This document shows, piece by piece, positions 574-63,846 of a stretch of DNA of 64,000 bases (positions within the stretch are counted from its first letter, which is position 1; each line of letters begins with the position of its first letter). Source of the stretch: Patescibacteria group bacterium (GTDB lineage Bacteria > Patescibacteriota > Minisyncoccia > Portnoybacterales > UBA2143); the NCBI GenBank assembly GCA_018830295.1, contig JAHJSM010000001.1, positions 129,980 to 193,979 on the forward strand, written 5' to 3'. The notes beneath the pieces are model-generated. The model saw only the letters and a program-made list of their open reading frames with translations. It searched no databases and had not been told where the DNA came from. Both the position numbers and the translations under genes were made by a program.

Positions 574-577
574 TTTA

Positions 578-2117: not shown

Positions 2118-2121
2118 AAAA

Positions 2122-4744: not shown

Positions 4745-4745
4745 A

Positions 4746-7404: not shown

Positions 7405-7410
7405 TAATAA

Positions 7411-9813: not shown

Positions 9814-9815
9814 AA

Positions 9816-23468: not shown

Positions 23469-23493
23469 ATTTGTTTCTAATGATAAATAATAT

Positions 23494-25380: not shown

Positions 25381-25409
25381 TAGAACTAATTTTAAATGAA
25401 TTTAATCAA

Positions 25410-25445
25410 AAAGTAAAGAGCCCCGAAGGGCTCTTTACTCTCATG
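25410..25445 (-). terminator. Rho-independent terminator downstream of the 1203-aa surface protein gene
   Basis: Perfect 11-bp stem GTAAAGAGCCC / GGGCTCTTTAC with a 4-nt loop, followed on the minus strand by TTTTTGATT. Confidence 0.7.
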
Positions 25446-25465
25446 CTAACAAGAAATTAGCATTT

Positions 25466-28400
25466 TTACTCGTACAATGTCTGTGGCGAAGAGGTCGTCT
25501 GTAATCCTTCGATTAAGTAACCATTCCACCATTGAGCAACTGTAGTCGTAGCGTTTGAGTTGGCGCCATAGTGAGTGCTATTGTTAGACCAGAGATCTGA
25601 CCAAACAAAGTTGCCTTGATTGTCCTCGCTATAAGAATTTGAGTTATTCAAGACAACAGCAGCTTCGGCGGTAGTAGTAGCCGTATCTCCGCATAGATAA
25701 GTGGAAATACTTTCGCCTGTAGTGGCGTCTAATCCGGTAATTGTGCCAACCATCAATTGGAACCTAGCCGTATCGCCAGCCGGGACAACATAAGGCATAA
25801 ATGTCTGTGTAGCCGTATTCTTCCCGTGCAAGTCGTAATGGAAAGATTCAGCCCAAGTGCTGTTATCGTTAACCATTGTTCCATCGTTGCCAGCCGAAAC
25901 CGTGCTATAAGAGGTCTCTCCGCTCAACTTGGCCTGAAGATAAGCTCCATTAACATTGATGTCGCCTCCGCCGCTTGTGGCCGTCCAGAAGTTCAATTGA
26001 GATACAGCGATTGCTTCGGTCGTGTCATTCGCTATGTTGAAGTCAAACATAACTGCGCTGCTCTGTAACGCGGTCGCGCTCAAAGTGTTTAAGCTAACCT
26101 TTGGCTGCGCTAAATGAAGAGTCATCGCGCTACTCGTGCTTTGAGTATAGGTTTCTGACGCTTCGCTGCCCGAAGCCGCGCCATAGCCCTTAATGCCATC
26201 AGTTCCGCCTAATCCAACTTTGATGTCGGCTCCTGACGCGCCGGTCTGACCAGTGCCAATACCAGCTAATTTTGCCTTAACATAAATAACCAATCCTGCA
26301 GTGCTGTCCTTAGGAACTTGCAAAATACCTTTGCTGAATGACCATGTTCTGGTGGTCTGTCCAGTTGAAATGTTTCCAGAAGCAAACGCCGTGCTTTCTC
26401 CAGCTTTATAGAGATAGAACATTGTTACATCATCTGAATCGCCAGCAACTGTTCCGTTGGCTGTTCCGCCATCTTGCAAATTAAGCACTAATTGAGTTAC
26501 ATCAATATTTTCATTGCTAGCGGTTAACTTGATTCTGGCAACTTCAACGGTCTCGCCGGCCGTGACTATCTTTGACGAAGGAGTGCCTGAATCCAAATTA
26601 ATAGTCAAAGTGCCAGACGCGGCAGAAGTCATAGTCGGACCATCATCTTCTGTTAATGTTTCAGTAACTGTATTCCCGGTTGTTACGCCATAAGCAATAA
26701 TAGAAGCTCCGCCATTATCTGTTAATCCCCAATTTTCCGTAGCGTTAGAAGCAACTGATGTTTTATTACCCATCAGAGCGATATTAACGCTTGTTCCAGC
26801 GGCAATAATAATCGCGTCGCTGAAAGCGAATGTTGAGGTAGCCAACGCGCTTGCGATAGCGCTATTGATCGGCGAATATGCCACATCCGAACCGTCATCC
26901 CAAACAGCGTCTCCGTCAACATCCTTAAATATAGTTAAGGAACCCGTATTTGTAGCCGCCTGCCCTCTGCCAGCCATAAGAATTGAAGTTACTCTAATGT
27001 CTTCTCCTGAAGAAGTAGCATCAAATGTCCACGAGGACAAAACAACATTATTCTGACCAGCAATGATTGTGGCAGCCGCAGGCAAAGCGTTTCTAGTTAC
27101 TGTCAAAGAAGCCGCTTTAACTGTCTGAGTGTTTCCATTAACAGCTGAAGACGGGGTGCCTGTAATACTATTTCCCGTTACATCGCCAGTAGCTGTAAAG
27201 CCGGAAGGGGTAATACTCACATAAATAGTATCATCGCTTGCCCAACCGCCGCTTGTGGACAAATCACCTCTAACCTTATAGACAGTATCGCCAACCGGCA
27301 CGGTAAATGTGTCTGTCCATGCAACTGTTACGGCATTATTGGTAATATCGGTCGGACCCGCGACAGCATTGCCGCTTGGGTCAACTAATTCCAAACCGGA
27401 CAAAGCGTCCTTAATGTGAGTAAGCGCGCCCGAAGAGGTAATAGTCAATGTGACAGCGCTAATAGTAACTGGTTCGCCGGTTACGGTAAACTTATACGCG
27501 CCGAGATATTGGTTGTTGCCAACCGCGATATTCCCAGATGATACATCGTTGCTTTTTGTAACTTGCAATGTTCCATTGCCAATTACAAATTCATTATCAC
27601 TTAAGCGAGGATTTGTAGCGCTAGAGCCAGTGCCACTATATGTCGGAGTAATGTTGTATCCATAAGTTAAGCCCTTAACCAATAAATCAGTATTTCTGTA
27701 AATAGCTAATTTAACAGTTCTAGCAGAACCATCCGCAACAGTCGCTTTAACCTGGAACTGATTCGTCTGTCCTTTGTCAAGAGTAATTGTGCCAAAACTA
27801 AAGTTGACATATTTACTGCTCGCCACAACGCCATCAGCAATCTTTGTTCCGTCCTGCAATAACTCAAAATCAACAAGATCGCTTCCTAAACTCGCGCTTC
27901 CTTCTTGGTAAACTTTTACCTGGCTGAATTCAACTTTTTCATCCGAGCCCGCCGCAACCTGGAATGAGAAGAAAGTATAATCTTCTTTTCCTACTGGAGT
28001 GGGAGAAGCCGTTGTCGAAGAAGCGTTTCTGTAAGCGCCTTGCGAAATCGTCGCTGTGCCAATCGTAATTGTGCTGTTGATGGTCATCGTATTGCCGGTA
28101 AGAGGCAATGAAGCGTTCAATGTCGCGCTATCTTTCAATGTCAAACCAGATAAAGCCAAAGCGGGAACCTCGCCAGCGTAACTAGCCAAAGTCGCTTTCG
28201 CGGCCATGTTTCCAGCCAGAATAACTGACTTGGTTGTGCCATTGGCAATCGTGAAGTCATCGGTAAAGGTCGCTTCGTGCAAAGAGTTAAAGGTTTTGCT
28301 CGTATTATTGAGAGGTAAGTTTGTGCTTGCGTCAATAATATCTATTGAGCTAAAGCTCAAATCATTAGCCAAACTAACTCTTTGAACAACCAACGAATCA

Positions 28401-29077
28401 ACGATGACATCGCCGCCAGTCGCGGTCAAATTAACCTTGGTAAAGGCCAATCTCGCCGCTCCGCCAACCGCAATACCTGCCGCTGGAGTGTCAGCCGCTA
28501 AGGTAACTCCTAAAGTCCCTACGCTCGCAACTGCTCCGGGCGGGAAAACCGTGCTCGCGTTCGCAACATCGGCTCCTGCCGTGTATCCTGCTGTGTCGGT
28601 GCCGTTAATCGTGTAAATCGCGTCAGCGTCAAAAACCGCCAAAAACTCCGCGGCAGTCATATTGAGCCAATACTTATTACCGTCATCAGCGCCATCCGCG
28701 GCGTACAATCTGTAAACTTTGTCATTTCCATCTTCTCTGACTAAATCGGTCGTGGTGAGGGAATCCATGGTTGCTTGATCAACATCCATAACATCATCCC
28801 AGTTGTCACCATTTCCGTTTTTATCAAAGTGCATATAACTCTCAAACACATGAGGAGATAGAATTAATCTCTTGAAACTTTTATCACCAACTATCTTGAC
28901 GATATAAATGTCAAGTTGAGCCATGCCTTCAGCATTAGGATTGCGAACTAAATCGCCGTCCACAACGCTTACAGCGCCAACGCTCGCGATCGGGGCTAAC
29001 ATAGCGATTCCCGAAAGAAAACATATGGTGGTAATAGAAGTAAAAATAGAAACTGATTTCTTTAATATTTTACTCAT
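25466..29077 (-). CDS. Giant secreted surface protein (1203 aa; Thr/Ser/Ala/Gly-rich, Ig-like/beta-rich repeats; S-layer or adhesin-like)
   Basis: Signal peptide. The N-terminal conserved domain is shared with the 21933..23468 protein. The rest is a long low-complexity T/S/G-rich region. A strong terminator lies downstream. Confidence 0.6.
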   Translation of the reverse strand: MSKILKKSVSIFTSITTICFLSGIAMLAPIASVGAVSVVDGDLVRNPNAEGMAQLDIYIVKIVGDKSFKRLILSPHVFESYMHFDKNGNGDNWDDVMDVDQATMDSLTTTDLVREDGNDKVYRLYAADGADDGNKYWLNMTAAEFLAVFDADAIYTINGTDTAGYTAGADVANASTVFPPGAVASVGTLGVTLAADTPAAGIAVGGAARLAFTKVNLTATGGDVIVDSLVVQRVSLANDLSFSSIDIIDASTNLPLNNTSKTFNSLHEATFTDDFTIANGTTKSVILAGNMAAKATLASYAGEVPALALSGLTLKDSATLNASLPLTGNTMTINSTITIGTATISQGAYRNASSTTASPTPVGKEDYTFFSFQVAAGSDEKVEFSQVKVYQEGSASLGSDLVDFELLQDGTKIADGVVASSKYVNFSFGTITLDKGQTNQFQVKATVADGSARTVKLAIYRNTDLLVKGLTYGYNITPTYSGTGSSATNPRLSDNEFVIGNGTLQVTKSNDVSSGNIAVGNNQYLGAYKFTVTGEPVTISAVTLTITSSGALTHIKDALSGLELVDPSGNAVAGPTDITNNAVTVAWTDTFTVPVGDTVYKVRGDLSTSGGWASDDTIYVSITPSGFTATGDVTGNSITGTPSSAVNGNTQTVKAASLTVTRNALPAAATIIAGQNNVVLSSWTFDATSSGEDIRVTSILMAGRGQAATNTGSLTIFKDVDGDAVWDDGSDVAYSPINSAIASALATSTFAFSDAIIIAAGTSVNIALMGNKTSVASNATENWGLTDNGGASIIAYGVTTGNTVTETLTEDDGPTMTSAASGTLTINLDSGTPSSKIVTAGETVEVARIKLTASNENIDVTQLVLNLQDGGTANGTVAGDSDDVTMFYLYKAGESTAFASGNISTGQTTRTWSFSKGILQVPKDSTAGLVIYVKAKLAGIGTGQTGASGADIKVGLGGTDGIKGYGAASGSEASETYTQSTSSAMTLHLAQPKVSLNTLSATALQSSAVMFDFNIANDTTEAIAVSQLNFWTATSGGGDINVNGAYLQAKLSGETSYSTVSAGNDGTMVNDNSTWAESFHYDLHGKNTATQTFMPYVVPAGDTARFQLMVGTITGLDATTGESISTYLCGDTATTTAEAAVVLNNSNSYSEDNQGNFVWSDLWSNNSTHYGANSNATTTVAQWWNGYLIEGLQTTSSPQTLYE

Positions 29078-29272
29078 TAATCTGTTTAATTTTAATCTCT
29101 AAGATTAGCTAATTCATATGGTATTAGATAACCTTATTCGATCTTTTTTCGTTTCTCAGCCATATCGACCTGAAAACAAATTATTTTACGGCTGACTAAT
29201 TTATAACTCATACAAGTCCGACTGTCAAGGATTTCGACCCCTCAACAACCAAACCCCAAATTTTTAAATGTA

Positions 29273-29331
29273 GGGGGCTGCCCCCCGCAACGGGGGCAGC
29301 CCCCATCTTTACTGTTTGGGGGGCAGCCCCC
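29273..29331. repeat. REP-like GC-rich palindromic repeat cluster (family A: GGGGGCWGCCCCC units)
   Basis: gggggctgccccccgcaacgggggcagccccc plus an extra gggggcagccccc unit, in the 3'UTR of the anti-sigma gene. Confidence 0.8.
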
Positions 29332-29338
29332 ATCTTAA

Positions 29339-30088
29339 CTACTCACAAACATTAATCACCTCTTCCGTCGTTGTCGTTCCTCCCGTCTCCAATTCTCTCA
29401 AAAAGGTAAGTATCTCATAACCCGGCGTTGTCGTCCCCATTCCCTCTTCTCCATCAACCAACAAAACAGCCAAAATCTGCTGCCCAATATCCTTAATCGT
29501 CTCATCCGCTTCCACTAATTCATTCTTAATATCAGAAGACGCGTTTTCCTTAACTTTATCCAAATCCTCCTTAATCTGCTTCGTTCTGATTACAACCGCG
29601 ACCGCTTCTTCTTTTGAAATTTTATCAATATCTTGGCTGAAATTAGCCAAATTTCCTTTGAAATCAACAACTACCTTTCTCGCTTTTGCGTCCGATTCGC
29701 CTGAAACAAGGGAATTTTTCGTTATTTTCGTCAATTCTTCCAACCGACGGCAAGCGAAATCCGCCTGCAATTGGCTCTTTTCTCCACCTAATAAAGCCGC
29801 GCTTTGAACGCTTTCACCCGCTCTTTTAACGGAATAAAGCAATTCCCCAGGCAAACTCATTTGCGCCGCCTTTAAGGTCATCCAAGGTCCTCCAATAAAA
29901 ATCAAAGCCAGACAAGCCGCCAAAGCCATTGACTGCGTTTGTCTAATCCATTCAAAAAAGCCAACTGGCTCATCAAAGCCAATCTTCGCCATCAAATCCC
30001 GTCGCGCCAAATCAACCCATTCTCCCGATGGCTCAACTTTCCGCAATCCCTTGATTTTTTTAATTAAATCTCTATCTCTTGTCTCCAT
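29339..30088 (-). CDS. Putative membrane-anchored anti-sigma factor
   Basis: Immediately downstream of the ECF sigma gene. Short cytoplasmic N-terminus, single TM (MALAACLALIFIGGPWMTL), then an extracytoplasmic domain. Confidence 0.45.
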   Translation of the reverse strand: METRDRDLIKKIKGLRKVEPSGEWVDLARRDLMAKIGFDEPVGFFEWIRQTQSMALAACLALIFIGGPWMTLKAAQMSLPGELLYSVKRAGESVQSAALLGGEKSQLQADFACRRLEELTKITKNSLVSGESDAKARKVVVDFKGNLANFSQDIDKISKEEAVAVVIRTKQIKEDLDKVKENASSDIKNELVEADETIKDIGQQILAVLLVDGEEGMGTTTPGYEILTFLRELETGGTTTTEEVINVCE

Positions 30089-30141
30089 ACTAAGTATGAC
30101 GAACCCCCGCTCATTTTGTTACACAGTAAGGGGGGAAAGAT

Positions 30142-30242
30142 GGGGGCTGCCCCCGTTGCGGGGGCAGCCCCCATCGGGGAAATCGGGGGCAGCCCCCATC
30201 TTCTAGGCATCGGGGGCTGCTCCCGCAACGGGGGCAGCCCCC
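30142..30242. repeat. REP-like repeat cluster (family A, 3 units), overlapping the 3' end of the sigma factor CDS
   Basis: Units at 30142-30172 (full hairpin), 30185-30197 (half) and 30212-30242 (full hairpin, one mismatch). Each is followed by ATC(T/G). Confidence 0.8.
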
Positions 30243-30745
30243 ATCTTACACTTCAACTCCTTCAACGCCCTATGAATCAACACCCTAACCGTTCCTTCGG
30301 GCTTTTCTAAAATTTGGGCGATTTCCTTGTTTGAAAAGTCATCCAAATAGCGCCAAATGATAATATTTTGATATTTATTCTCAATCTGACCAAGCGCCTT
30401 TTTTACTTCCTCCACATCAGAATCTATATTCAATCGGCTGTTTAAATCAAATTTATCTTCAATTTTAGATAAAATACTGTCTTCTGGGTCCATAATAAGA
30501 TCCGTCCGCGATTTTTTGCGATAAAAATCAATCACCAAATTATTGGCTATTTTATAAAGCAAAGCCCTTGGATTCTCAATAACTGTCTTATCCGAGCCGT
30601 CTTCCGAGACATTCCGCCAAAAACGCAAAAAAACCTCCGAAGTCAAATCCTCCGAGTCCCGAGGCGAACTAACCTTCAAGTAAACAAAACGATAAATCCG
30701 CCCCGCATACCTATCATAAATTTTAACAAACTCCCTCTTCTTCAT
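30203..30745 (-). CDS. RNA polymerase sigma-70 family ECF sigma factor
   Basis: Region 2 (EVFLRFW...YRKKSRTDL) and region 4 HTH (YLDDFSNKEIAQILEKPEGTVRVLIHRALKELK). The C-terminal 15 aa (CKMGAAPVAGAAPDA) are encoded by a REP copy. Confidence 0.75.
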   Translation of the reverse strand: MKKREFVKIYDRYAGRIYRFVYLKVSSPRDSEDLTSEVFLRFWRNVSEDGSDKTVIENPRALLYKIANNLVIDFYRKKSRTDLIMDPEDSILSKIEDKFDLNSRLNIDSDVEEVKKALGQIENKYQNIIIWRYLDDFSNKEIAQILEKPEGTVRVLIHRALKELKCKMGAAPVAGAAPDA

Positions 30746-30754
30746 AGGTTTAGA

Positions 30755-30832
30755 GGGGGGGCAGCCCCCGTTTTTGCGGGGGCAGCCCCCCGATTGGAGA
30801 AGGGGGCTGCCCCCGTTGCGGGGGCAGCCCCC
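30755..30832. repeat. REP-like repeat cluster (family A) between the RAYT gene stop and the sigma factor start
   Basis: Two half-units and one full 31-nt hairpin. The cluster ends 10 nt upstream of the sigma factor ATG. Confidence 0.8.
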
Positions 30833-30838
30833 AAGAAA

Positions 30839-31408
30839 CTATTCAAAATCAAGTTTTTCCTTAATTTGAAGGTCAACTACCTCCTCTTCTGTAACTCGTT
30901 TATACCATTCCGGCGAATTATCCCCCATTATCACCTCTTTGTCGCAAAGCGTTCCTTCGCGCGCTCCGATATAGTCGGGATAACTTGACCATTGATAATC
31001 CTCCAACTTACTAACCAAACCCGCAGAAAGAGGATTTAGGTGAATATATGACGAAAGATGCAGAAGATATTCATCTTTATCAATAATCTTACACCCGAAT
31101 CGACCTTGAAAAAGATGCCCTGTTTTACTATATTTCTTGTTGAAATACATTGAATAACTTGTATGTAAAGATGAAACGAACTTGGAAATAGGCGTTTCTG
31201 TATTTTGCCTTATTGCTAAATGAATGTGATTAGGCATTAAGCAATAAAAAACAATTGTAACATTATATTTTTTGTTATATTCTCTTGCTTTCTTTAAATA
31301 AAAAATATAATCTTCTTCATCTAAAAAGATATCTTTTTTATTATTACCACGATTATAAACATGGTAATACGCTCCTTCATAGTAAATTCTTGGTTTATAT
31401 TCTGCCAT
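30839..31408 (-). CDS. REP-associated tyrosine transposase (RAYT; IS200/IS605 TnpA-like Y1 HuH transposase)
   Basis: YYHVYNRGNNKKDIF and MPNHIHLAI (HuH) match the RAYT/COG1943 pattern. SYIHLNPLSAGLV is comparable to the YIYINPVKHG helix of E. coli RayT. The protein is flanked on both sides by REP hairpins. The start is placed at MAEYKP (ATG at 31408). The longer ORF to 31456 reads through a REP. Confidence 0.75.
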   Translation of the reverse strand: MAEYKPRIYYEGAYYHVYNRGNNKKDIFLDEEDYIFYLKKAREYNKKYNVTIVFYCLMPNHIHLAIRQNTETPISKFVSSLHTSYSMYFNKKYSKTGHLFQGRFGCKIIDKDEYLLHLSSYIHLNPLSAGLVSKLEDYQWSSYPDYIGAREGTLCDKEVIMGDNSPEWYKRVTEEEVVDLQIKEKLDFE

Positions 31409-31416
31409 ATGTATTT

Positions 31417-31471
31417 TGGGGGCTGCCCCCGTTGCGGGGGCAGCCCCCATTTCCACGCGGGGGCTGCCCCC
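31417..31471. repeat. REP-like repeat pair (family A) immediately upstream of the RAYT gene
   Basis: Full 31-nt hairpin at 31417-31447 and a half-unit at 31458-31471. Confidence 0.8.
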
Positions 31472-31527
31472 AATTGTTTTCTATACAGTATAGGCGAAAA
31501 GAGATAAAACAGCAAGAGTTTTGTTCA

Positions 31528-34500
31528 TTACTCCCCAAATGCGTACAAAGTTCCGTCGTCGGAGGCGATGTAGATTGTTCCTGTGGAATCAATCGCGGCT
31601 CCTTGGGAAATGACATCGTTTAATTCTTCGGATTGCCATTTGAGAGAGCCGTCGGGGTTAACCGCGTAAAATGTTTTGCTGTTGGAACCGATGTAAATTG
31701 TTCCTTCCTTGTCAATGATTGGCGAGGCGTGAATTTTTCCTTGCGCGTTGAAAGTCCACTTAGTGCTATCATCTGTCTTATTTAAGGCGTGAAGATAATA
31801 ATCATGACTGCCAACATAGATCACATCTTGCCCAACGACTGGTATTGAATTACTAATCTCGCCAACCTGAACAAGATTAGACCATTTTAGACCACCATCA
31901 GATGAATTGAGAGCGTATAAACCATAAATACCGCCAACAAAAATTGTTCCATTATCATCCAAAGCGGGGGCGGTATCAAATGTGCTTGAAGCGCTTTTCC
32001 AAACGATGCTTCCGTCTTGAGGGTTAAGGGCGTAGACATTTCTACTGTTGTCGCCAGGACCTATTTGGCTAACAGTATAAATAATTCCATCTGAATCCAA
32101 AACTGGCGCTTTGACCCAATCTCCATTACTTAAATCCTGATTTTGCCAAACTAATTCTCCGTTGGGATTGAGGGCGTAAAGACCGTATTTAGAGCCGACA
32201 TAGATGGTTCCGTCGGAGGTGATTGTTGGTGAGGAGCCGTCGTGAATATTGTATTTCCATTTTAATTGGCCTTCTGAAGATAAAGCGTATAGATAATGAT
32301 AATTGTCAGATATGTAAATTGTTCCATCCGAAGCGATGGCGGGCGTCTGGATGGTTCCTATGGTTTGAGTGTTATAAAACAATTCCGCTGTTCCTGTGGC
32401 GTTGTCAAAGCTAACTTTGTAGAGGTTGCCGCTGCCTGCGCCGATATATATTTCCCCCTTCAAACCAATAACAGGAGACGATGGGCTGCTGCTTCCTAAA
32501 ATTATTTCCCTCGGAGTACTGGTCGGAGTTCCTGTAGCTGTTCCCGTATTAGAACTTAATCCGCTATGCCGGATATCGCCTTGAAGCATAGGCCAAGCCG
32601 TGTCGGCTAATTCAGGGAAGACAGCGTCTGGCTCAATTAAACTTAAAGAATTTTGCGGATTGGGAACGGTTTGCAAAACAAAGTCCTGACTGTTGTCATC
32701 TCTGTCTATATTATTCCCGCTCCAATGATGCGCGCCGTTGACCGCCAAAAGTTCCGCCGTAGAACTAGCAAATGCTTGGCGTTCTAAACTACCCCAAGGA
32801 AAACTATCAGTATCAACTGGCTTTCCCTCCGCTCCCAAACTATCTTTTCCCCAAGCGATCAAATCAACTGTTTCGTTATCACTTTTTAATAACTTGATTT
32901 TGCCTCCTGCGGCGGATAGATCTAAATAAGTCGGATCGCCCGTGGAAAGAGCCATGGCCGTCAAATCTGGCTCCATACCATAAGAATAACCAGCAGAACT
33001 AGTAGCGGAAGTTAAGAGATAATAACTATGGCTGGGTAAGTTGAAATTAGGCAAGGAACTAGTTGCTTCGCCGTCAACATTAAAATATATGCGATACCAA
33101 GTAGTAGTTGATTGAGACGAAGCGCGTCGCATAGACCAACCGCTCAAATTGATTGGATCATTGGTTGGGTTGTACAATTCAATAAATTCGTCGGTCTTGC
33201 GGCTATCGCCCAGCTGAACGGATATTTCGCTAATAACTATATTCTCCGCTATGGCTGATGGGCTGGAAGAGGCGATATTGGAAATTTCAGAAAGATTTCC
33301 CATATCATCTTCGGACTTTATTGCCCAGTAATATGTTTTGCTTGGCGTTAAGTTAGATATAGTTAAATTTTCCGTGCTGCTCGCGGAAGACGGCGACGGC
33401 TCGCCGACAATATCAGTTGAAGACGCCCAGTTGAGAGCGGTGATTTCGTAGGAAGTGGAGTATCTGATGATGTATGACGAAACAACGATGCTGTCACCCG
33501 GGGCAGTCCAGGAGAGGGCGACTGTCCCTCGGGTGACTCCCGAAGTTGCTGACAAGTCGGAAACAACCGACGGGGGAGTCGTGTCAACAATTAAATTTAG
33601 CAATACATCCTCGCTTTCGTTTTGAGCCGCGTCAATCGCTTTTACGGCGAGATTGTTTTCGCCTTCCAATAAATCAAGAATGCAATCCCAATCGCCCAAT
33701 CCGTCCGCGGTTGTCGTTGCTGCCGTTGTTGAGGCGAGGGAGACAGAAACAAGAAAACCAGGTGAAGATGTTCCAATCAAATTGATTTGATTAAAACCCA
33801 AAATATCCCCCGAAGCATGAGATGTGATGGAGACCACGGGAACGGAGACGGGGGCTGCCCCCGCAACGGGGGCAGCCCCCGATGCCCCACCCCCAATCGG
33901 AAAAGAAAATCCAAAAGGATGAGGAGACGGAACCGCTGGCTCTTCTTCTACCTCTTCTTCAATTTTCTCTTCTTCAACAATAATTATTTCCTCTATTTTC
34001 TCTACCTCTTTTACTTCTTTTATTACTTCAACTTCTTTTATTTCCTTTACTTCTTCTATCACTTCTACCTTCTCTATTACTTCTACCTTCTCTATCACTT
34101 CTATATTTTTTACTTCCTTAACAACAGGATTATTAACCAATGCCCCGCCAATTCCTGCTGATTGAAATGTTAAACCATTATTTCCGCCAAATAGTTCATC
34201 CCAAAAATTCCCAACAACCTCCATCACATATCCAGCATTTATCGGTCTTGTTTCTTCGGGATTGTAATACATAGATTGTTCCCAAGGATATTTAGATGTT
34301 CCGCCGCCTAATTCAATAACAAAAATACTTTTGCTCGCTTCTATTTCTTTGCTTTTGCCAAGTTTTGCCAAATGAAGCAAATCTATTCCTAATATGGGCG
34401 ACTTTGTTAGAGTTATCGCGCCATTAAATTGAGCAATATATTCCTGTGTTATTTCTTTTAGTTTGTAATTGTTATACGCGATTTTATAGCCGTCTTTACT

Positions 34501-35094
34501 CCATTTTTCTATTCTATCCCACATAAAAAAATTACAAATCTCATCACCTTCCTCATCAACACAAACAGCGTGCGAACCATTGGCAACATAAGCCCAAATA
34601 TGATTTGTTTTAGGACTTTCAATTTCTGTATCAAAGGTTTTTCTATGATGAGCCGTTCCAACTGTTCTAATAACTTCTTTTGTTTCTTTATCAACAAAGA
34701 CAAAGACCGCTTCCCAGTCGCTATAGTGTTTATTTTTAACTGTTACTGGATTATTATTGAAAACAAAAAAAGTCCAATACTCATAAACCCAATGGTCGCC
34801 CTCGTCTTCTATGTGGTAGAAAACGACAATATTGTTGGTTTTTTCAGCAAAAGAGAGATTATTATATTTCGCTCTAGCTTCCGCTCCTTCAATTTCTTCT
34901 CCGTTGACAAAATAAAAATCCAACGGGTCGGTTGGATAATATTGCTCATCAGGGTCAAATTGAAAATTAGGCGCGTAATTTAAGACAGAAGGAGGATTAT
35001 TCCCGTCATTCTGCCCCAAAACAAAAAAAGCAATCGAGCAAATAAAAAAAACAAAAAGTAAGATATATGACTTTGGAAAATAAAAGTTTTTCAT
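31528..35094 (-). CDS. Giant secreted multidomain surface protein (about 1188 aa): N-terminal domain, charged E/V/K/I-rich repeat linker, FN3-like domain, lamin-tail domain (LTD), C-terminal PQQ-like beta-propeller
   Basis: Signal peptide MKNFYFPKSYILLFVFFICSIAFFVLG. LTD-like IVISEISVQLGDSRKTDEFIELYNPTNDPINLSGW. C-terminal repeated G(T/E)IY(I/V)GS...Y(A/L)(L/V)N..(D/N)GS.KW motifs typical of PQQ-like propeller blades. An in-frame REP copy lies at 33850-33880. The start is placed at ATG 35094. The ORF extension to 35193 reads through REPs. Confidence 0.65.
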   Translation of the reverse strand: MKNFYFPKSYILLFVFFICSIAFFVLGQNDGNNPPSVLNYAPNFQFDPDEQYYPTDPLDFYFVNGEEIEGAEARAKYNNLSFAEKTNNIVVFYHIEDEGDHWVYEYWTFFVFNNNPVTVKNKHYSDWEAVFVFVDKETKEVIRTVGTAHHRKTFDTEIESPKTNHIWAYVANGSHAVCVDEEGDEICNFFMWDRIEKWSKDGYKIAYNNYKLKEITQEYIAQFNGAITLTKSPILGIDLLHLAKLGKSKEIEASKSIFVIELGGGTSKYPWEQSMYYNPEETRPINAGYVMEVVGNFWDELFGGNNGLTFQSAGIGGALVNNPVVKEVKNIEVIEKVEVIEKVEVIEEVKEIKEVEVIKEVKEVEKIEEIIIVEEEKIEEEVEEEPAVPSPHPFGFSFPIGGGASGAAPVAGAAPVSVPVVSITSHASGDILGFNQINLIGTSSPGFLVSVSLASTTAATTTADGLGDWDCILDLLEGENNLAVKAIDAAQNESEDVLLNLIVDTTPPSVVSDLSATSGVTRGTVALSWTAPGDSIVVSSYIIRYSTSYEITALNWASSTDIVGEPSPSSASSTENLTISNLTPSKTYYWAIKSEDDMGNLSEISNIASSSPSAIAENIVISEISVQLGDSRKTDEFIELYNPTNDPINLSGWSMRRASSQSTTTWYRIYFNVDGEATSSLPNFNLPSHSYYLLTSATSSAGYSYGMEPDLTAMALSTGDPTYLDLSAAGGKIKLLKSDNETVDLIAWGKDSLGAEGKPVDTDSFPWGSLERQAFASSTAELLAVNGAHHWSGNNIDRDDNSQDFVLQTVPNPQNSLSLIEPDAVFPELADTAWPMLQGDIRHSGLSSNTGTATGTPTSTPREIILGSSSPSSPVIGLKGEIYIGAGSGNLYKVSFDNATGTAELFYNTQTIGTIQTPAIASDGTIYISDNYHYLYALSSEGQLKWKYNIHDGSSPTITSDGTIYVGSKYGLYALNPNGELVWQNQDLSNGDWVKAPVLDSDGIIYTVSQIGPGDNSRNVYALNPQDGSIVWKSASSTFDTAPALDDNGTIFVGGIYGLYALNSSDGGLKWSNLVQVGEISNSIPVVGQDVIYVGSHDYYLHALNKTDDSTKWTFNAQGKIHASPIIDKEGTIYIGSNSKTFYAVNPDGSLKWQSEELNDVISQGAAIDSTGTIYIASDDGTLYAFGE
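33850..33880. repeat. REP family A hairpin embedded in frame inside the giant surface protein CDS
   Basis: gggggctgcccccgcaacgggggcagccccc translated as ...GGGASGAAPVAGAAPVSV... in the CDS frame. Confidence 0.8.
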
Positions 35095-35105
35095 CCAGGA
35101 TCTTT

Positions 35106-35160
35106 GGGGGCTGCCCCCGTTGCGGGGGCAGCCCCCTTCCCCAAATCGGGGGCTGCCCCC
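35106..35160. repeat. REP-like repeat pair (family A) in the short intergenic region upstream of the giant surface protein gene
   Basis: Full hairpin at 35106-35136 and half-unit at 35147-35160. Confidence 0.8.
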
Positions 35161-35165
35161 TTTAT

Positions 35166-35798
35166 CTAATTCTCGCTGCCCCAAACTCCCCACCCCAAAA
35201 ACACCCCAAAAATAGCGCTCATTAAAGAAAAAGTTAATAGATAACTAATCATTTGACAATCAAACAAAAAACCAAACGAATTTCCAATCACAGGCGCGAT
35301 TAAGGAGCCAAGAGCGAATCCAACCCCGCCTCTCCAAGTCAAAGACCATTTTTTAAGTTTGAAGAATAGGGAGTAGAGAAAACTGACAATAATGCCCATT
35401 ATGAAGAAAAATAGCCAAAAGTCGCCTACTGTAATATTTGGATCTAAATTCAAAAACTTATTAAATGTCGCAGCGCTTGCAAGTGGCTCCATAAAAAAAC
35501 TTGAGAGATAAATTCCAATAAGATACAAAGGATACTGGAATATCGCCGTCACAATAAATCCAATCACCAATCCCACAAAAACAACTAAAACCGACACTGC
35601 CATTTTCTTCGCGCTTTTCGAAAACCATTGCAAAGCAATTCCGCCGAATATACTTAAAGCGATAGCAAATGAGTAATGAAAAGTATATTCTATATCAGGA
35701 ATTCCCATATACATCACCACCCCCCAAATCAACCCGCCTAAACCAAACCCCAACGCGACGGTCAATAAATACTTCTTTAACGATATTATGTTGTCCAT
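35166..35798 (-). CDS. Polytopic membrane protein (about 6 TM), function unknown
   Basis: Six hydrophobic helices. No recognisable catalytic motif. Confidence 0.5.
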   Translation of the reverse strand: MDNIISLKKYLLTVALGFGLGGLIWGVVMYMGIPDIEYTFHYSFAIALSIFGGIALQWFSKSAKKMAVSVLVVFVGLVIGFIVTAIFQYPLYLIGIYLSSFFMEPLASAATFNKFLNLDPNITVGDFWLFFFIMGIIVSFLYSLFFKLKKWSLTWRGGVGFALGSLIAPVIGNSFGFLFDCQMISYLLTFSLMSAIFGVFLGWGVWGSEN

Positions 35799-35834
35799 AA
35801 AATTCTCCTTTCTTTTTAATTTTAACTTTTAATC

Positions 35835-35869
35835 GGGGACAGTCCCCATTCAAAATGGGGACTGTCCCC
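35835..35869. repeat. Inverted pair of family B palindromic units (GGGGACAGTCCCC ... GGGGACTGTCCCC) forming a 13-bp stem hairpin
   Basis: ggggacagtcccc-attcaaaat-ggggactgtcccc, 37 nt upstream of the membrane protein start. Confidence 0.75.
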
Positions 35870-35976
35870 AAAAGATATATCCCTATCCCAATGAAATGAT
35901 TTGAAATCCTTTTTCTCCCATTATATCACAAAATCGCTTGCGGAAAAATGGGAGGGTATAACAGCAACAACAACAA

Positions 35977-36037
35977 GGTCAGACCTTCAGAAAGAGAATT
36001 GAGGTCAGACCTTTTCAGTTTTGAAAGGTCTGACCTC
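35977..36037. promoter_or_regulatory. Three copies of the palindromic 11-mer AGGTCWGACCT (two direct, one inverted): candidate terminator and/or operator sites
   Basis: aggtcagacctt at 35977 and 36002, and aaggtctgacct at 36026. Located 30 nt downstream of the pseudo-protease gene stop. Confidence 0.45.
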
Positions 36038-36066
36038 AATGCTTCTTAACCCAAGGATTTTTTTTA

Positions 36067-36819
36067 TTAAAACCCTGCAAATAATTTGATTTGACTGGAG
36101 GGGATTGTTTCAATGAGGCCTTTTTGGTCTACTAGGTTTAGACCGATGACCTCGCCCTTGATATTAACCAACGGACCGCCATTGGCTGAAGAATTTTGCT
36201 CAGTTAAATTGATTTTGAGAATTTTCGCGTAAATACTTCTAATGATGCCTAAATTAACAAAACGATTTAACCCTTCTTCTGTTAATTCGGCGCCTATTAA
36301 AATAATCCTCTGTCCTAATCGCAAGTCCTCAAAATCAACAAAAGAAACGACTGGCAAATTACTCTCGCCTATTTTAAGCAAAGCCAGATTACTTCCCACG
36401 TCTTTTTTCACGACTTCCGCCGCCAAAGAATGACTATTTCTAAAAATTAAATACCGGTCGGCTTTAGTGGAAATATTGTCAGCCGCCGTTATAATCAAGC
36501 CATCGCTCGCAATCACGAAACCCGAACCCTGACTAATTATTTTCTCCCCTTGAAGCGCCTGGACAATAACCAAGCAAGGTCCGACCTTACTCACGGCGTC
36601 TTCTATCGCCGTATTTTCAGTAATAACAATTTTTTCTGTTGGATTGATAATAGTTGTCCCATTTCCCGATTGATGAATAAATTTAATTTTAGAAAATGAA
36701 GGAATTGTGGAAAGATACGGTAAAAAAAACTGGTCAGCCAAAACGCCGCCCAGCCCTCCAATGACCAAAATTGCGAACAAATTAAAAACTTTTTTACGCA
36801 TAAACAAGATTTGCCTCAA
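36067..36819 (-). CDS. Membrane-anchored trypsin-fold (S1C/HtrA-like) protein with the catalytic triad apparently substituted (predicted inactive pseudo-protease)
   Basis: N-terminal TM. GSGFVIASDGLIITAADNI aligns to DegP GSGFII..GYIVTNNHVI (H to D). SNLALLKI aligns to TDIALLKI (D to N). NSSANGGPLVNIKGEVIGLN aligns to NPGNSGGPLLNLNGEVIGIN (S to N). Confidence 0.6.
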   Translation of the reverse strand: MRQILFMRKKVFNLFAILVIGGLGGVLADQFFLPYLSTIPSFSKIKFIHQSGNGTTIINPTEKIVITENTAIEDAVSKVGPCLVIVQALQGEKIISQGSGFVIASDGLIITAADNISTKADRYLIFRNSHSLAAEVVKKDVGSNLALLKIGESNLPVVSFVDFEDLRLGQRIILIGAELTEEGLNRFVNLGIIRSIYAKILKINLTEQNSSANGGPLVNIKGEVIGLNLVDQKGLIETIPSSQIKLFAGF

Positions 36820-36823
36820 ACGA

Positions 36824-37201: not shown

Positions 37202-37211
37202 TTATTATATC

Positions 37212-37724: not shown

Positions 37725-38218
37725 AACCTATCTTCCGCGGTTAGATTCCGCCAAGCGCCGCCCCTTTGCCATTTAACTTCCACAACCACCTTAACTTCAT
37801 CAGAAGATATTTTCGTTAAACTAATTTTACGATAAAATTGACTATTATCGCCTGAATCATATTGATAAAGCCCGCTCACAGTATTAAATTTCAAAGGCAT
37901 TTCAGAAAAAGCCAACAAATTAGGATTGTCGTATTGAACCAAATAATCGCCGCTTAAAACTGTGTCATACCAATCGCTCCAATCCGACTGCGTCCTCCTC
38001 ATATATCTAACCATCTCTATCCCCTCCTGCGCCAAGCCCGAAGCGGTTAATCGCGCTTGACTCAAAGAAGCAGCCCGCAAAGAGGCCTGACTTAAATCTA
38101 AGATGCCAATCATGCCAACGGAAACAATAAAAATCGCGACAATTACGCCGATTAGAGAAAACCCAGATTTGGGGGCTGCCCCCGTTTTAGGGGGCAGCCC
38201 CCAAATAGATACTTTCAT
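37709..38218 (-). CDS. Type IV pilin-like / pseudopilin protein with a REP copy inside the leader-peptide coding region
   Basis: KSG|FSLIGVIVAIFIVSVGMIGIL prepilin-like segment. The leader MKVSIWGLPPKTGAAPKSG is encoded by a family A REP variant at 38171-38201. Confidence 0.55.
   Translation of the reverse strand: MKVSIWGLPPKTGAAPKSGFSLIGVIVAIFIVSVGMIGILDLSQASLRAASLSQARLTASGLAQEGIEMVRYMRRTQSDWSDWYDTVLSGDYLVQYDNPNLLAFSEMPLKFNTVSGLYQYDSGDNSQFYRKISLTKISSDEVKVVVEVKWQRGGAWRNLTAEDRLWNWK
38171..38201. repeat. REP family A variant (loop GTTTTA) within the pilin leader coding sequence
   Basis: gggggctgcccccgttttagggggcagccccc. Confidence 0.75.
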
Positions 38219-38224
38219 ATAGTT

Positions 38225-63816: not shown

Positions 63817-63846
63817 GGGGACAGTCCCCTCTTGGGGACAGTCCCC
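63817..63846. repeat. Direct pair of family B palindromic units (GGGGACAGTCCCC x2), 9 nt upstream of the pilD start
   Basis: ggggacagtcccc-tctt-ggggacagtcccc. Confidence 0.75.

What the first reader, a model, noticed from the sequence alone, without database searches (positions are those of the whole stretch)
29273..35160. REP/RAYT system: IS200-like Y1 transposase flanked by GC-rich 31-nt hairpin repeats that are scattered through about 9 kb
The 190-aa protein at 30839-31408 has the RAYT hallmarks: Y-H-V-x-N-R-G N-terminal strand, HuH motif (NHIHL), and a C-terminal Y...N helix. Immediately on both sides are clusters of the hairpin GGGGGCTGCCCCC-GTTGC-GGGGGCAGCCCCC. Further copies, in both loop orientations (GTTGC or GCAAC), occur at 29273, 30142, 30185, 30212, 33850, 35106, 35147 and 38171. 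In a genome of this low GC these 80-100% GC elements are conspicuous. RAYT-with-REP systems are well known in proteobacteria. Here the REP is an unusually GC-rich perfect hairpin whose half-sites are themselves palindromes (G5C-W-GC5), and the host looks CPR-like.
Basis: partly seen in the sequence, partly recalled or inferred. Interest (0 to 1): 0.75.

Follow-up and report, generated by a model that had tools for sequence, protein, structure and literature searches.

The report
RAYT transposase with miniature palindromic repeats
A single-copy, domesticated-looking tyrosine transposase gene in an ultra-small (CPR/Patescibacteria) bacterium sits among dozens of copies of a tiny GC-rich hairpin repeat that it most likely mobilises; this is a known kind of system (REP/RAYT) in a group of bacteria and a protein subclass where it had not been described.

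Summary
There are 22 copies of GGGGGCWGCCCCC in 29273-38202 (0.01 expected by chance). Most are inverted doublets (CTG...CAG, spacer GTTGC/GCAAC) that fold into a 14-bp hairpin. They bracket a 189-aa Y1/HUH gene at 30839-31408(-).

The protein is RAYT-like, not IS200-like. It has NHIH, FQ and YIHLNP motifs. It scores 73.5 bits on NCBIfam REP_Tyr_transpos against 20 bits on IS200. Its best structural match is E. coli TnpA_REP (4ER8).

The gene is single-copy. It holds the same syntenic slot (LTD surface protein - RAYT - ECF sigma - DUF5667 - 1200-aa protein) in eight other Patescibacteria lineages at 56-76% identity. Each lineage has a different short palindrome flanking the gene.

The exact 31-mer occurs on 33 contigs of related metagenomes, in 43-53 distinct contexts. 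Some copies lie in frame inside housekeeping genes. The repeat is therefore dispersed, not a local duplication.

There is no GTAG-like tag, and the 'ATCT guide' idea fails. Motifs and nearest relatives place the protein in TnpA_Y1 subclass 2.1 (RAYT Group 1, 'TIRYT'), whose TIR motif GGGGWSAS matches the window's second repeat variant, GGGGACAG.

This is a new member of a known kind, of moderate interest.

The parts
30839..31408 (-). RAYT-like Y1/HUH tyrosine transposase gene (189 aa). HUH = H61/H63 in NHIH, catalytic Y121 in YIHLNP, FQ at 100-101, WSS at 140-142.
   Evidence: Pfam Y1_Tnp 60.9 bits. NCBIfam REP_Tyr_transpos 73.5 bits against IS200 20.2 bits. Invariant columns in a 35-sequence alignment. 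AF2 model pLDDT 90.3. Best PDB match 4ER8 TnpA_REP, E 2.8e-8. 9 synonymous against 2 non-synonymous codon changes relative to L020.
30757..30832 (.). Repeat cluster just beyond the RAYT stop codon: a CAG-GTTTTTGC-CAG pair followed by a CTG-GTTGC-CAG doublet. 30787-30839 forms one arm of the composite inverted repeat that brackets the gene.
   Evidence: Inverted repeat I2 with arms 30787-30839 and 31411-31463, 53 nt, 83% complementary.
31418..31471 (.). Repeat cluster 9 nt before the RAYT start codon: a doublet plus a single CTG unit. This is the other arm of the bracket.
   Evidence: The 62-nt stretch folds as ssDNA at -26.9 kcal/mol, z = -5.0.
30142..30242 (.). Cluster between the DUF5667 gene and the ECF sigma gene: doublet, single unit, doublet. 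The last doublet (30212-30242) supplies the final 12 codons and the stop region of the sigma gene.
   Evidence: The sigma protein ends ...KELKCKM+GAAPVAGAAPDA, whereas four orthologues end at ...LKKxM.
29273..29331 (.). Cluster between the 1203-aa gene and the DUF5667 gene: a doublet (spacer CGCAAC) plus a single unit.
   Evidence: At the orthologous site in L026 the spacer is inverted.
33850..33880 (.). Doublet in frame inside the 1188-aa LTD/fn3/PQQ surface-protein gene. It encodes GAAPVAGAAP in an inter-domain linker.
   Evidence: The ORF is open for 454 and 773 codons on either side. None of five homologues carries the peptide, and the region is a variable linker after the conserved PFG(L/F)SF.(P/I)GG motif. 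An independent copy lies in the L016 orthologue about 45 aa away.
35106..35160 (.). Cluster before the start of the 1188-aa gene: a doublet plus a single unit. It is the inverse of the 30778-30834 cluster.
   Evidence: Inverted repeat I1, 57 nt, 88%. It is polymorphic among relatives: L047 has one unit here and L023 has the third unit flipped.
38171..38202 (.). Doublet (spacer GTTTTA) inside the leader-peptide codons of a PilV-like prepilin gene (37709-38218, minus strand).
   Evidence: The window leader is MKVSIWGLPPKTGAAPKSG|FSLIG. The L056 orthologue has MFKIFKSNKA|FSLIG, with 65% identity over the rest. N_methyl and PilV hits.
35835..35869 (.). Second repeat variant: GGGGACAGTCCCC-ATTCAAAAT-GGGGACTGTCCCC. 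The G:C pair at positions 5/9 is replaced by A:T.
   Evidence: It folds at -19 kcal/mol, z = -7.3. GGGGACAG fits the TIRYT motif GGGGWSAS.
63817..63846 (.). Two more units of the GGGGACAGTCCCC variant, 25 kb from the main group.
35973..36042 (.). Third palindrome family, AGGTCWGACCT (three units, one hairpin). The same motif flanks the orthologous RAYT in L066.

Best explanation
This is a REPtron-like locus of a Patescibacteria (Portnoybacteria-related) genome. It holds a vertically inherited, single-copy Y1/HUH endonuclease of the RAYT/TnpA_REP class (subclass 2.1-like, short form without the C-terminal DnaA_C-type HTH) together with the non-autonomous palindromic repeats that the enzyme most likely mobilises.

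The repeat unit ('REP') is the 13-nt near-palindrome GGGGGCWGCCCCC. The usual mobile form in this lineage is an inverted doublet ('REPIN') of 31 nt, CTG unit - GTTGC - CAG unit.

Shown here:
- The catalytic motifs are intact.
- The predicted fold is RAYT-like.
- The gene is bracketed by inverted repeat clusters.
- The doublet forms a very stable ssDNA hairpin.
- The same 31-mer sits in more than 40 unrelated contexts in close relatives.
- Orthologous RAYTs in other lineages carry other palindromes of the common form RGGNC-W-GNCCY.

Inferred by analogy with E. coli, S. maltophilia and Marinomonas TnpA_REP (PMC3479197, PMC8266576):
- The enzyme binds the folded hairpin on transiently single-stranded DNA.
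- It cleaves through Tyr121, with the HUH histidines holding a metal ion.
- It rejoins strands, so that repeats are excised, copied or inserted without target duplication.

Because no GTAG-like tag exists, recognition probably reads the conserved palindrome itself (outer GG/CC and the central CWG).
For: Repeat statistics.

Protein class.

Subclass:
- The motif table of Quentin 2018 gives subclass 2.1 as NHVH/NH[YF]H, FQ, Y[IV]HLNP, an SS tail and a HuH-Y distance of 58-67.
- The window protein has NHIH, FQ, YIHLNP, WSS and a distance of 60.
- Its nearest longer relatives (40-50% identity, about 315 aa) carry Bac_DnaA_C, the subclass 2.1.2 hallmark.

Single copy.

Synteny of the RAYT slot at 56-76% identity: L016, L021, L056, L058, L062/63, L064 and L067 by Pfam-annotated neighbours; L066 by sequence match of its neighbouring genes to the window's surface-protein C-terminus and sigma N-terminus.

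Lineage-specific flanking palindromes lie on both sides of the gene in 10 of 11 loci.

Dispersal:
- 34 stretches on 33 contigs, of which 31 do not align to the window.
- 43-53 unique flank contexts, and 44 of 53 share the spacer GTTGC.
- Copies lie inside Mur-ligase, GltX, DprA and glycosyltransferase genes.
- The half-site pair occurs on 10 contigs of Cand. Portnoybacteria MHMZ01.

Hairpin stability: -20.4 kcal/mol, z = -5.9.

Turnover at orthologous sites.
Against: - No biochemical link between this protein and these repeats can be shown here.
- There is no conserved flanking tag, and no empty-site/filled-site pair that would define the mobile unit exactly.
- Within the window the main repeat is confined to 9 kb around the gene. 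The source genome itself could not be found, so genome-wide dispersal is shown only in relatives at 85-99% identity.
- Several repeat families coexist in one genome, and the family that flanks the orthologous RAYT differs between lineages (G5 here, AGGTCWGACCT in L066, GGAGCWGCTCC in L016, the last two also carrying G5 elsewhere). 'Cognate' assignment is therefore not clean.
- In MHMZ01 the G5 pairs have 11 different spacers and locus-specific stem extensions, which fixed-unit transposition does not explain.
- The NCBIfam equivalog cut-off is missed (73.5 against 80).
- Published surveys report subclass 2.1 / Group 1 as not REP-associated.
Confidence: 0.8

Rival explanations
1. The hairpins are host elements that do not depend on the transposase, for example transcript-end or mRNA-stabilising hairpins, or sites for a dimeric DNA-binding protein. 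They would spread or be maintained by replication template-switching and selection. The Y1 protein would be a domesticated enzyme with another job that merely sits in a repeat-rich operon.
For: - Clusters fill nearly every intergenic gap of a co-directional gene string.
- Each 13-mer is a two-fold symmetric site.
- In MHMZ01 the pairs have variable spacers, three of them palindromic, and locus-specific stem extensions of 4-8 nt in 5 of 11 loci. Some have A-tract/T-tract flanks, like bidirectional terminators.
- Spacer inversion at orthologous sites is what template switching at hairpins produces.
- Group 1 RAYTs are reported as not REPIN-associated.
Against: - Ten of 11 orthologous or related RAYT genes are flanked on both sides by whichever palindrome is repeated in that lineage.
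- In the window lineage 44 of 53 copies share an identical 31-mer, spacer included, in unrelated contexts. That indicates movement of a fixed unit.
- Copies lie in frame inside essential genes, where a terminator or operator makes no sense.
- Few copies have a T-run on the coding (minus) strand.
Confidence: 0.13
2. It is an active autonomous IS200/IS605-type insertion sequence, and the hairpins are simply its subterminal ends and their debris.
For: Pfam names the domain 'Transposase IS200 like'. Hairpins lie directly at both gene ends. IS608 and ISDra2 TnpA are the next-best structural matches.
Against: - The gene occupies the same syntenic slot in eight other lineages at 56-76% identity.
- There is one copy in the window and none in about 170 kb of repeat-rich relatives' contigs other than the orthologue.
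- The Y motif is Y...NP, not Y...Q.
- The NCBIfam IS200 score is 20.2 against a cut-off of 55.
- There is no tnpB gene.
- The two gene flanks are inverted copies of the same repeat rather than distinct left and right ends.
- Repeats outnumber the gene by more than 20 to 1.
Confidence: 0.03
3. The repeats are a local duplication or an assembly artefact confined to this 9-kb stretch.
For: Within the 64-kb window all G5 units lie in 29273-38202.
Against: - The same 31-mer occurs on 33 contigs from five metagenomes, and 31 stretches are unrelated to the window.
- The half-site pair occurs on 10 contigs of an independent NCBI MAG.
- Flanks differ at every site.
- The GA variant recurs at 63.8 kb.
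Confidence: 0.01

Closest known systems
TIRYT / TIRtron (Di Nocera et al. 2013, PMC3733652) = TnpA_Y1 subclass 2.1 (Quentin et al. 2018, PMC6006769) = RAYT Group 1 (Bertels et al. 2017, PMC5581495)
   Same: - The motif signature matches: NHxH, FQ in place of WQ/WE, Y[IV]HLNP, a serine-containing tail and a HuH-Y distance of about 60.
- The nearest longer relatives have the Bac_DnaA_C tail typical of subclass 2.1.2.
- The gene is flanked by inverted repeats carrying GGGGWSAS (the window has GGGGACAG at 35835 and 63817, and GGGGGCAG in the main family).
- Some described TIR families are self-complementary and occur as dimers or clusters in moderate copy number.
   Different: - The window protein is a 189-aa short form without the HTH tail.
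- The host is a CPR bacterium.
- The repeat is a 13-nt unit used mainly as a 31-nt doublet with a fixed spacer, and it is frequent enough to fill almost every intergenic gap near the gene.
- Quentin 2018 found no REP-like sequences for subclass 2.1.
- Membership was tested by motifs and relatives' domains only, not by phylogeny with the reference sets.
E. coli TnpA_REP (RAYT Group 2, subclass 2.2) with REP/BIME; structure 4ER8
   Same: - It is the best structural match: E 2.8e-8, TM 0.68 on the target, aligned over all 165 residues.
- HUH and Y...NP align.
- It is a single-copy gene bracketed by inverted REPs (a REPtron), with mosaics of REP variants in clusters as in BIMEs.
- The mechanism is ssDNA hairpin binding plus cleavage and strand transfer (PMC3479197, PMC8266576).
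   Different: - Only 19% identity, and the phmmer E-value is 0.15.
- E. coli REPs are imperfect palindromes with a bulge and an obligatory 5' GTAG. Here the palindromes are perfect and have no tag.
- WQ/WE is replaced by FQ.
REPIN-RAYT systems of Pseudomonas and enterobacteria (Bertels & Rainey 2011, PMC3116915; bioRxiv 10.1101/2021.07.10.451892)
   Same: - Inverted REP doublets form hairpins.
- The RAYT is single-copy, vertically inherited and flanked by its repeats.
- Different lineages or paralogues carry different repeat families.
   Different: - Those REPINs are about 100 bp and almost exclusively extragenic. Here they are 31 nt, and at least 6 of 52 copies are intragenic.
- Those authors state that only Group 2 and 3 RAYTs have REPINs, whereas this protein is Group 1-like.
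Rickettsia palindromic elements and intragenic REPs (reported in PMC3733652 and PMC6006769)
   Same: Short palindromic repeats are inserted in frame in protein-coding genes, tolerated in linkers and loops.
   Different: RPEs are longer (about 100-150 bp; from my own knowledge) and have no known dedicated transposase. Here the insert is about 10-11 codons, mostly read as GAAPVAGAAP.

Membership tests
RAYT / TnpA_REP (class 2 TnpA_Y1) | HUH motif plus catalytic Tyr in a Y-x-x-x-N-P motif (class 1 / IS200 has Y-x-x-x-Q) | tested here: met
   NHIH (H61, H63) and YIHLNP (Y121, N125, P126). These columns are invariant or nearly so in 35 homologues.
RAYT / TnpA_REP (class 2 TnpA_Y1) | Y1_Tnp fold closest to TnpA_REP | tested here: met
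   AF2 model pLDDT 90.3, pTM 0.86. The top Foldseek PDB hit is 4ER8 at E 2.8e-8. IS608 and ISDra2 follow at E 2e-6 or weaker.
RAYT / TnpA_REP (class 2 TnpA_Y1) | Score above the NCBIfam REP_Tyr_transpos (NF047646) equivalog cut-off | tested here: not met
   73.5 bits against a cut-off of 80. It is still far above IS200 (20.2 against 55).
RAYT / TnpA_REP (class 2 TnpA_Y1) | Single copy, vertically inherited, same genomic slot in related genomes | tested here: met
   One tblastn hit in the window. Conserved neighbours (LTD surface protein; ECF sigma; DUF5667; 1200-aa protein) in eight other lineages at 56-76% identity. P0094 (52% identity) is in another context.
RAYT / TnpA_REP (class 2 TnpA_Y1) | Gene bracketed by its repeat in inverted orientation (REPtron) | tested here: met
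   Arms 30787-30839 and 31411-31463, 53 nt, 83% complementary. The same holds in 10 of 11 related loci.
RAYT / TnpA_REP (class 2 TnpA_Y1) | Flanking repeat is dispersed through the genome in many more copies than the gene | tested here: inconclusive
   Met in relatives at 85-99% identity: 33 contigs and 43-53 contexts. In the window itself the copies are confined to 9 kb, and the source genome was not retrievable.
RAYT / TnpA_REP (class 2 TnpA_Y1) | Protein cleaves and rejoins its cognate single-stranded repeat | not testable with these tools
   This needs a cleavage/strand-transfer assay as in PMC8266576.
Canonical GTAG- or CGTC-tagged REP | Conserved GT[AG]G (or CGTC) tetranucleotide at the foot of the hairpin | tested here: not met
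   Flank composition of 43 unique doublets: the strongest signal is A at +1 (53%). ATC plus ATT account for 28% of flanks. There is no GTAG or CGTC.
REPIN (Bertels & Rainey) | Two REPs in inverted orientation at a fixed short distance forming a hairpin, in excess over singlets | tested here: met
   Window: 8 of 9 short-spaced pairs are CTG..CAG with a spacer of 5-6 nt, and 18 of 22 units are paired. The stem is 14 bp at -20.4 kcal/mol.
REPIN (Bertels & Rainey) | About 100 bp, almost exclusively extragenic, partner RAYT of Group 2 or 3 | tested here: not met
   The doublet is 31 nt. At least 6 of 52 copies lie within long ORFs. The protein motifs are Group 1 / subclass 2.1.
TnpA_Y1 subclass 2.1 / TIRYT | Motifs NHVH or NH[YF]H; FQ or W[EQ]; YIELNP or Y[IV]HLNP; SS tail; HuH-Y distance 58-67 | tested here: met
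   NHIH (the hydrophobic residue is I rather than V, Y or F), FQ, YIHLNP, WSS, distance 60. No phylogeny with the reference set was possible.
TnpA_Y1 subclass 2.1 / TIRYT | C-terminal HTH domain (Bac_DnaA_C, HTH_23 or HTH_28) | tested here: not met
   The window protein has only Y1_Tnp. Eight of 10 nearest long relatives have Bac_DnaA_C. Subgroup 2.1.2 is described as heterogeneous, with presence or absence of this domain.
TnpA_Y1 subclass 2.1 / TIRYT | Flanking inverted repeats carrying GGGGWSAS | tested here: inconclusive
   GGGGACAG is met by the second variant (35835, 63817). The units that actually flank the gene read GGGGGCAG, with one mismatch at W.
IS200/IS605 insertion sequence | Several near-identical gene copies with distinct left and right subterminal hairpins, often with tnpB; Y...Q motif | tested here: not met
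   and the synteny calls.

The most novel reading that the evidence does not exclude
A clade of 'REP-less' subclass 2.1 / Group 1 RAYTs has been kept at one chromosomal slot through the diversification of Portnoybacteria-like CPR bacteria. Meanwhile its partner palindrome has been repeatedly re-specified (at least nine different RGGNC-W-GNCCY-type units at 52-99% protein identity). The repeats would be made and remodelled in place, not only transposed: doublets would arise by fold-back or template-switch copying at a single 13-nt unit, possibly primed by a RAYT nick. That would explain the variable spacers and locus-specific stem extensions in MHMZ01, the spacer inversions at orthologous sites, and the one-unit versus three-unit polymorphism. 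If so, this would be a natural specificity-switch series for HUH enzymes and a distinct way of generating REPINs in streamlined genomes.
Probability: 0.2. Interest if true: 0.65.

Novelty: new member of a known kind. Interest (0 to 1): 0.45.

Why it matters
- It extends REP/RAYT-type systems to the Candidate Phyla Radiation, whose roughly 1-Mb genomes are usually regarded as streamlined and repeat-poor. In the searchable library no listed paper combined REP with CPR, and the one paper naming a REP-associated tyrosine transposase and CPR together only mentions an archaeal K07491 hit.
- It ties a real, dispersed doublet population to the RAYT subclass that two surveys describe as lacking REPs or REPINs.
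- Because the gene sits at a fixed syntenic slot while the flanking palindrome changes from lineage to lineage, the set of orthologues is a ready-made series for mapping which protein residues read which bases.
- Practical consequences:
  - The repeats probably fragment CPR assemblies. In L020 the contig ends right after the clusters.
  - They mislead gene callers. P0001 is called with a repeat-encoded N-terminus.
  - They add 10-12 residues to real proteins, including a sigma factor tail, a prepilin leader, and Mur ligase, GltX and DprA in relatives.

Tried and rejected
1. It holds for 5 of 13 window sites but only 28% of flanks in 43 unique copies, and no tag was found.
2. Target-site duplications. 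None is visible in the flanks of intragenic or intergenic copies.
3. Empty-site versus filled-site pairs to define the mobile unit. No clean empty site was found among the fetched loci. Only a one-unit versus three-unit polymorphism (a 42-nt difference between two direct 13-mers) and flips turned up.
4. Known RNA families. Nothing reaches a gathering score; there are only spurious miRNA-hairpin matches.
5. Intrinsic terminators. The terminator-like calls on repeats are mostly on the non-coding strand or have weak T tails.
6. Locating the source genome. An exact-protein look-up found nothing, and the GTDB representative scan did not contain the window. The nearest is JGI metagenome contig Ga0180015_1010725 (L020, 98% nt, 99% aa).
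7. A close homologue of the 1188-aa protein lacking the insert. The best hit is only 54% identical, so the inserted length could not be measured.
8. Same-column orthology of the intragenic copy in the window and in L016. Both lie in the same linker but about 45 residues apart, so they are probably independent.
9. A second RAYT paralogue that might own the G5 family. None occurs in the window or in the fetched loci, but the sampling is small.
10. Short contigs of RAYT homologues (79 of 120 have a longest contig under 5 kb) as evidence of repeat-driven assembly breaks. This was not used, because the collection's median contig is about 1 kb anyway.

Full report
**1. The observation**

GGGGGCWGCCCCC with at most one mismatch occurs 22 times. 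All copies lie between 29273 and 38202. Dinucleotide-preserving shuffles give 0.01 matches on average.

The reverse complement of the CTG form is the CAG form, so each 13-mer is a palindrome except for its central base. That base gives the unit an orientation.

Eighteen of the 22 units are paired. Eight pairs are inverted doublets: a CTG unit, a 5-6 nt spacer, then a CAG unit. One pair is a direct CAG/CAG pair. Four single units each lie 10-14 nt from a doublet.

As single-stranded DNA the 31-mer forms a 14-bp stem with a 3-nt loop (-20.4 kcal/mol, z = -5.9).

- GGGGACWGTCCCC at 35835/35857 and 63817/63834, where the G:C pair at positions 5/9 is replaced by A:T.
- AGGTCWGACCT, three copies at 35976-36036.

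All three families share the form RGGNC-W-GNCCY.

**2. The gene**

The ORF at 30839-31408(-) encodes 189 residues. An alignment with 34 homologues fixes the start at the ATG at 31408. The longer GTG-initiated frame merely reads through the upstream repeat. The 99%-identical metagenome protein P0001 was in fact called with such a repeat-encoded N-terminus.

Family and motif evidence:
- Pfam gives Y1_Tnp at 60.9 bits.
- NCBIfam gives REP_Tyr_transpos at 73.5 bits, just under its 80-bit equivalog cut-off, and IS200 at only 20.2 bits against a cut-off of 55.
- H61, H63, Q101, Y121, H123, P126 and W140-S141-S142 are invariant in the alignment, and N125 is nearly so.

Structure evidence:
- An AlphaFold2 model built on that alignment has pLDDT 90.3.
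- Its best match among solved structures is E. coli TnpA_REP bound to a REP hairpin (4ER8; E 2.8e-8, aligned over all 165 residues).
- The IS608 and ISDra2 transposases come next.

Against the 98%-identical gene in L020 there are 9 synonymous and 2 non-synonymous codon differences.

**3. Single copy and vertical inheritance**

tblastn finds one copy in the window. It finds no further copy in about 170 kb of repeat-rich contigs from relatives, apart from the orthologue.

Homologues at 56-76% identity were traced to their contigs:
- P0013/L016
- P0015/L021
- P0076/L056
- P0027/L058
- P0025/L062-63
- P0002/L064
- P0003/L066
- P0010/L067

In all of them the gene occupies the same slot: downstream of a large LTD-domain surface protein and upstream of (sometimes an NTP-transferase and) an ECF sigma factor, a DUF5667 protein and a roughly 1200-aa protein. 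For L066 the neighbouring products carry no recorded Pfam hits. They match the window's surface-protein C-terminus and sigma N-terminus by sequence. That is the order in the window.

P0094 (52% identity) lies elsewhere.

This pattern is what is described for RAYTs and is the opposite of an active IS.

The syntenic contigs and the best-named homologues are Candidatus Portnoybacteria / Patescibacteria.

**4. The repeats go with the gene and change with it**

In the window the gene is bracketed by inverted composite arms (30787-30839 and 31411-31463; 53 nt, 83% complementary).

In the related loci the orthologous gene is flanked by a different short palindrome, and that palindrome recurs elsewhere in the same locus. 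This holds on both sides of the gene in 10 of 11 loci.

| Locus | Identity to window RAYT | Flanking palindrome |
|---|---|---|
| L020 | 99% | GGGGGCWGCCCCC |
| L064 | 76% | AAGGACACCCC-TAA-GGGGTGTCCTT |
| L066 | 72% | AAGGTCWGACCTT |
| L067 | 66% | AGGACWGTCCCT |
| L021 | 64% | AAGGACGTCCTT |
| L016 | 62% | GGAGCWGCTCC |
| L062 | 62% | CGACCTAGGTCG |
| L058 | 60% | AGGGACWGTCCCT |
| L056 | 56% | AAGGC(CGT)GCCTT |
| L060 | 52% | AGGACWGTCCT |

(Sources.)

Symmetric changes that keep each unit a palindrome argue that the palindrome itself is what matters.

**5. Dispersal**

The exact 31-mer occurs on 34 stretches of 33 contigs from five related JGI metagenomes. Thirty-one of these stretches do not align to the window. 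The three that do are 85-91% identical, so they come from related strains or species.

After de-duplication there are 43-53 different flank contexts, and 44 of 53 share the spacer GTTGC. That is what movement of a fixed unit predicts.

Independently, pairs of the half-site occur on 10 contigs of the NCBI MAG MHMZ01 (Cand. Portnoybacteria RIFCSPHIGHO2_02_FULL_39_12). This MAG carries the P0013-type RAYT.

One caveat remains: the source genome itself could not be retrieved.

Within the window the main repeat is limited to the 22-40 kb stretch that is syntenic with relatives and has 42-46% GC. The 30%-GC flanks encode glycosyltransferases, asparagine synthase, radical-SAM enzymes and aminotransferases, and they have none of the main repeat.

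**6. Copies inside genes**

Three window copies lie inside reading frames:
- The copy at 33850-33880 is in frame in the 1188-aa surface-protein gene and encodes GAAPVAGAAP. It lies in a hypervariable linker after a conserved PFG(L/F)SF.(P/I)GG motif, and none of five homologues has it.
- The copy at 30212-30242 replaces the stop codon of the ECF sigma gene and adds 12 residues that four orthologues lack.
- The copy at 38171-38202 lengthens the leader of a PilV-like prepilin from about 10 to 19 residues compared with its L056 orthologue.

In relatives, copies lie in frame in a Mur ligase, GltX, DprA (two copies) and GT4 glycosyltransferases. They are mostly read as G-A-A-P-x-x-G-A-A-P.

In-frame intragenic REPs are known from other systems.

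**7. Turnover**

At orthologous sites in strain pairs three kinds of change are visible:
- The 5-nt spacer is inverted (GTTGC/GCAAC) in two pairs: the window against L026, and L032 against L036.
- A single unit is flipped (window 35148 CTG against L023 CAG).
- One site has one unit in L047 but a doublet plus a unit in the window, a 42-nt difference bounded by direct 13-mers.

These changes show that the elements are dynamic. They do not by themselves show transposition.

**8. What does not fit the classical picture**

- There is no conserved tag at the foot of the hairpin. The strongest flank signal is A at +1 (53%), ATC/ATT follow 28% of ends, and no target duplication is visible. The canonical REP definition (GTAG or CGTC tag) is therefore not met.
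- Published REPINs are about 100 bp, extragenic and tied to Group 2/3 RAYTs. These are 31 nt, partly intragenic, and tied to a protein whose signature matches Quentin's subclass 2.1, which equals Bertels Group 1.
- That signature is NHIH, FQ, YIHLNP, a WSS tail and a HuH-Y distance of 60.
- The nearest relatives outside the CPR clade (40-50% identity, about 315 aa) carry the Bac_DnaA_C domain that marks subclass 2.1.2. The window protein lacks it.
- Subclass 2.1 corresponds to Di Nocera's TIRYTs. Those genes are flanked by inverted repeats carrying GGGGWSAS, some self-complementary and present as dimers or clusters in moderate numbers.
- GGGGACAG, the left half plus centre of the window's second variant, fits that motif exactly. 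The main variant differs at one position.

TIRYT/TIRtron is therefore the closest known system. Canonical REP and REPIN membership fails on defined features, but the way it works is most likely the same.

**9. Unresolved points**

- Several families coexist in one genome, and the family that flanks the orthologous gene differs between lineages. G5 is also present away from the gene in L016/MHMZ01 and L066. Either one enzyme tolerates the whole RGGNC-W-GNCCY class or unsampled paralogues exist.
- In MHMZ01 the 11 G5 pairs have 11 different spacers. They are mostly in the opposite unit order (CAG...CTG). Three spacers are palindromic, and 5 of 11 pairs have stem extensions of 4-8 locus-specific bases, against 1 of 43 in the window lineage. 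That looks like palindromes formed or selected in place rather than a transposed unit.

**10. Rivals**

- Autonomous IS: excluded by synteny, copy number, motifs and family scores.
- Local duplication or artefact: excluded.
- RAYT-independent host hairpins (terminators, operators, template-switch products): this keeps some weight because of the MHMZ01 pattern and because Group 1 RAYTs are not known REPIN partners. It does not explain the constant association with the gene across lineages, the identical 31-mer in unrelated contexts, or the in-frame copies in essential genes. The copies also rarely look like terminators on the coding strand.
- No Rfam family matches.

**11. Verdict**

Two corrections apply: there is no guide tetranucleotide, and the protein is subclass 2.1 / TIRYT-like rather than a classical REP partner.

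The system is a new member of a known kind. It has features a specialist would find worth following: a CPR host, a miniature unit, a fixed syntenic slot with changing repeat specificity, and intragenic copies. It is not a new principle. Interest 0.45.

Noticed in passing
window 29078-29178 (minus strand), upstream of the 1203-aa gene: A non-coding leader is conserved in five lineages. It reads GGTCGATACGGCTGAAAAA ... AAGGTCGAATGAGATTGTCTAAT-loop-AATTAGCCAATCTCAGAGA and forms a hairpin of about 16 bp. Two pairs change on both sides in the window copy. A conserved TCTTGACA box lies further upstream. There is no Rfam match. It may be a regulatory 5' leader of the sigma-linked surface-protein gene.
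   Followed up: partly
window 1-10000 and 40000-62000 versus 22000-40000: There is a sharp GC contrast. The flanks are about 30% GC and are full of glycosyltransferases, asparagine synthase, radical-SAM enzymes and aminotransferases. The syntenic core is 42-46% GC. The main repeat occurs only in the core.
   Followed up: partly
L002-L015 (Cand. Portnoybacteria MHMZ01): The G5 half-site pairs there have 11 different spacers, three of them palindromic. They are mostly in CAG..CTG order, and 5 of 11 have locus-specific stem extensions of 4-8 nt. One example is a 48-nt perfect palindrome in L008. Transposition of a fixed unit does not explain this.
   Followed up: partly
window 29273-29304 vs L026; L032:554-584 vs L036; window 35148 vs L023: At orthologous sites in related strains the hairpin spacer is inverted (GTTGC/GCAAC) and a single unit is flipped.
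   Followed up: partly
L047 (Ga0180732_1005473) 937-1614 and 4969-5668: A relative carries two copies of the 210-aa membrane-protein gene (window 35166-35798). Each copy is preceded by the same start-of-gene sequence and a G5 repeat, which suggests a segmental duplication with repeats at the junctions.
   Followed up: no
window 30839-31408: The RAYT gene has 32.6% GC, clearly lower than its neighbours (38-46%), although it is syntenic and so not recently acquired.
   Followed up: no
window 33984-34118: A repeat with 9-nt period inside the 1188-aa gene encodes an (E/V/K/I)-rich low-complexity linker just before the intragenic repeat copy.
   Followed up: no
window 63497-63545: A tandem TTGAAAA heptamer run lies in the intergenic region next to the two GGGGACAGTCCCC units.
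   Followed up: no
P0169, P0182 (relatives): Some relatives of the protein are fused to other domains: CYTH in P0169, and a Pol-beta-type nucleotidyltransferase in P0182.
   Followed up: no
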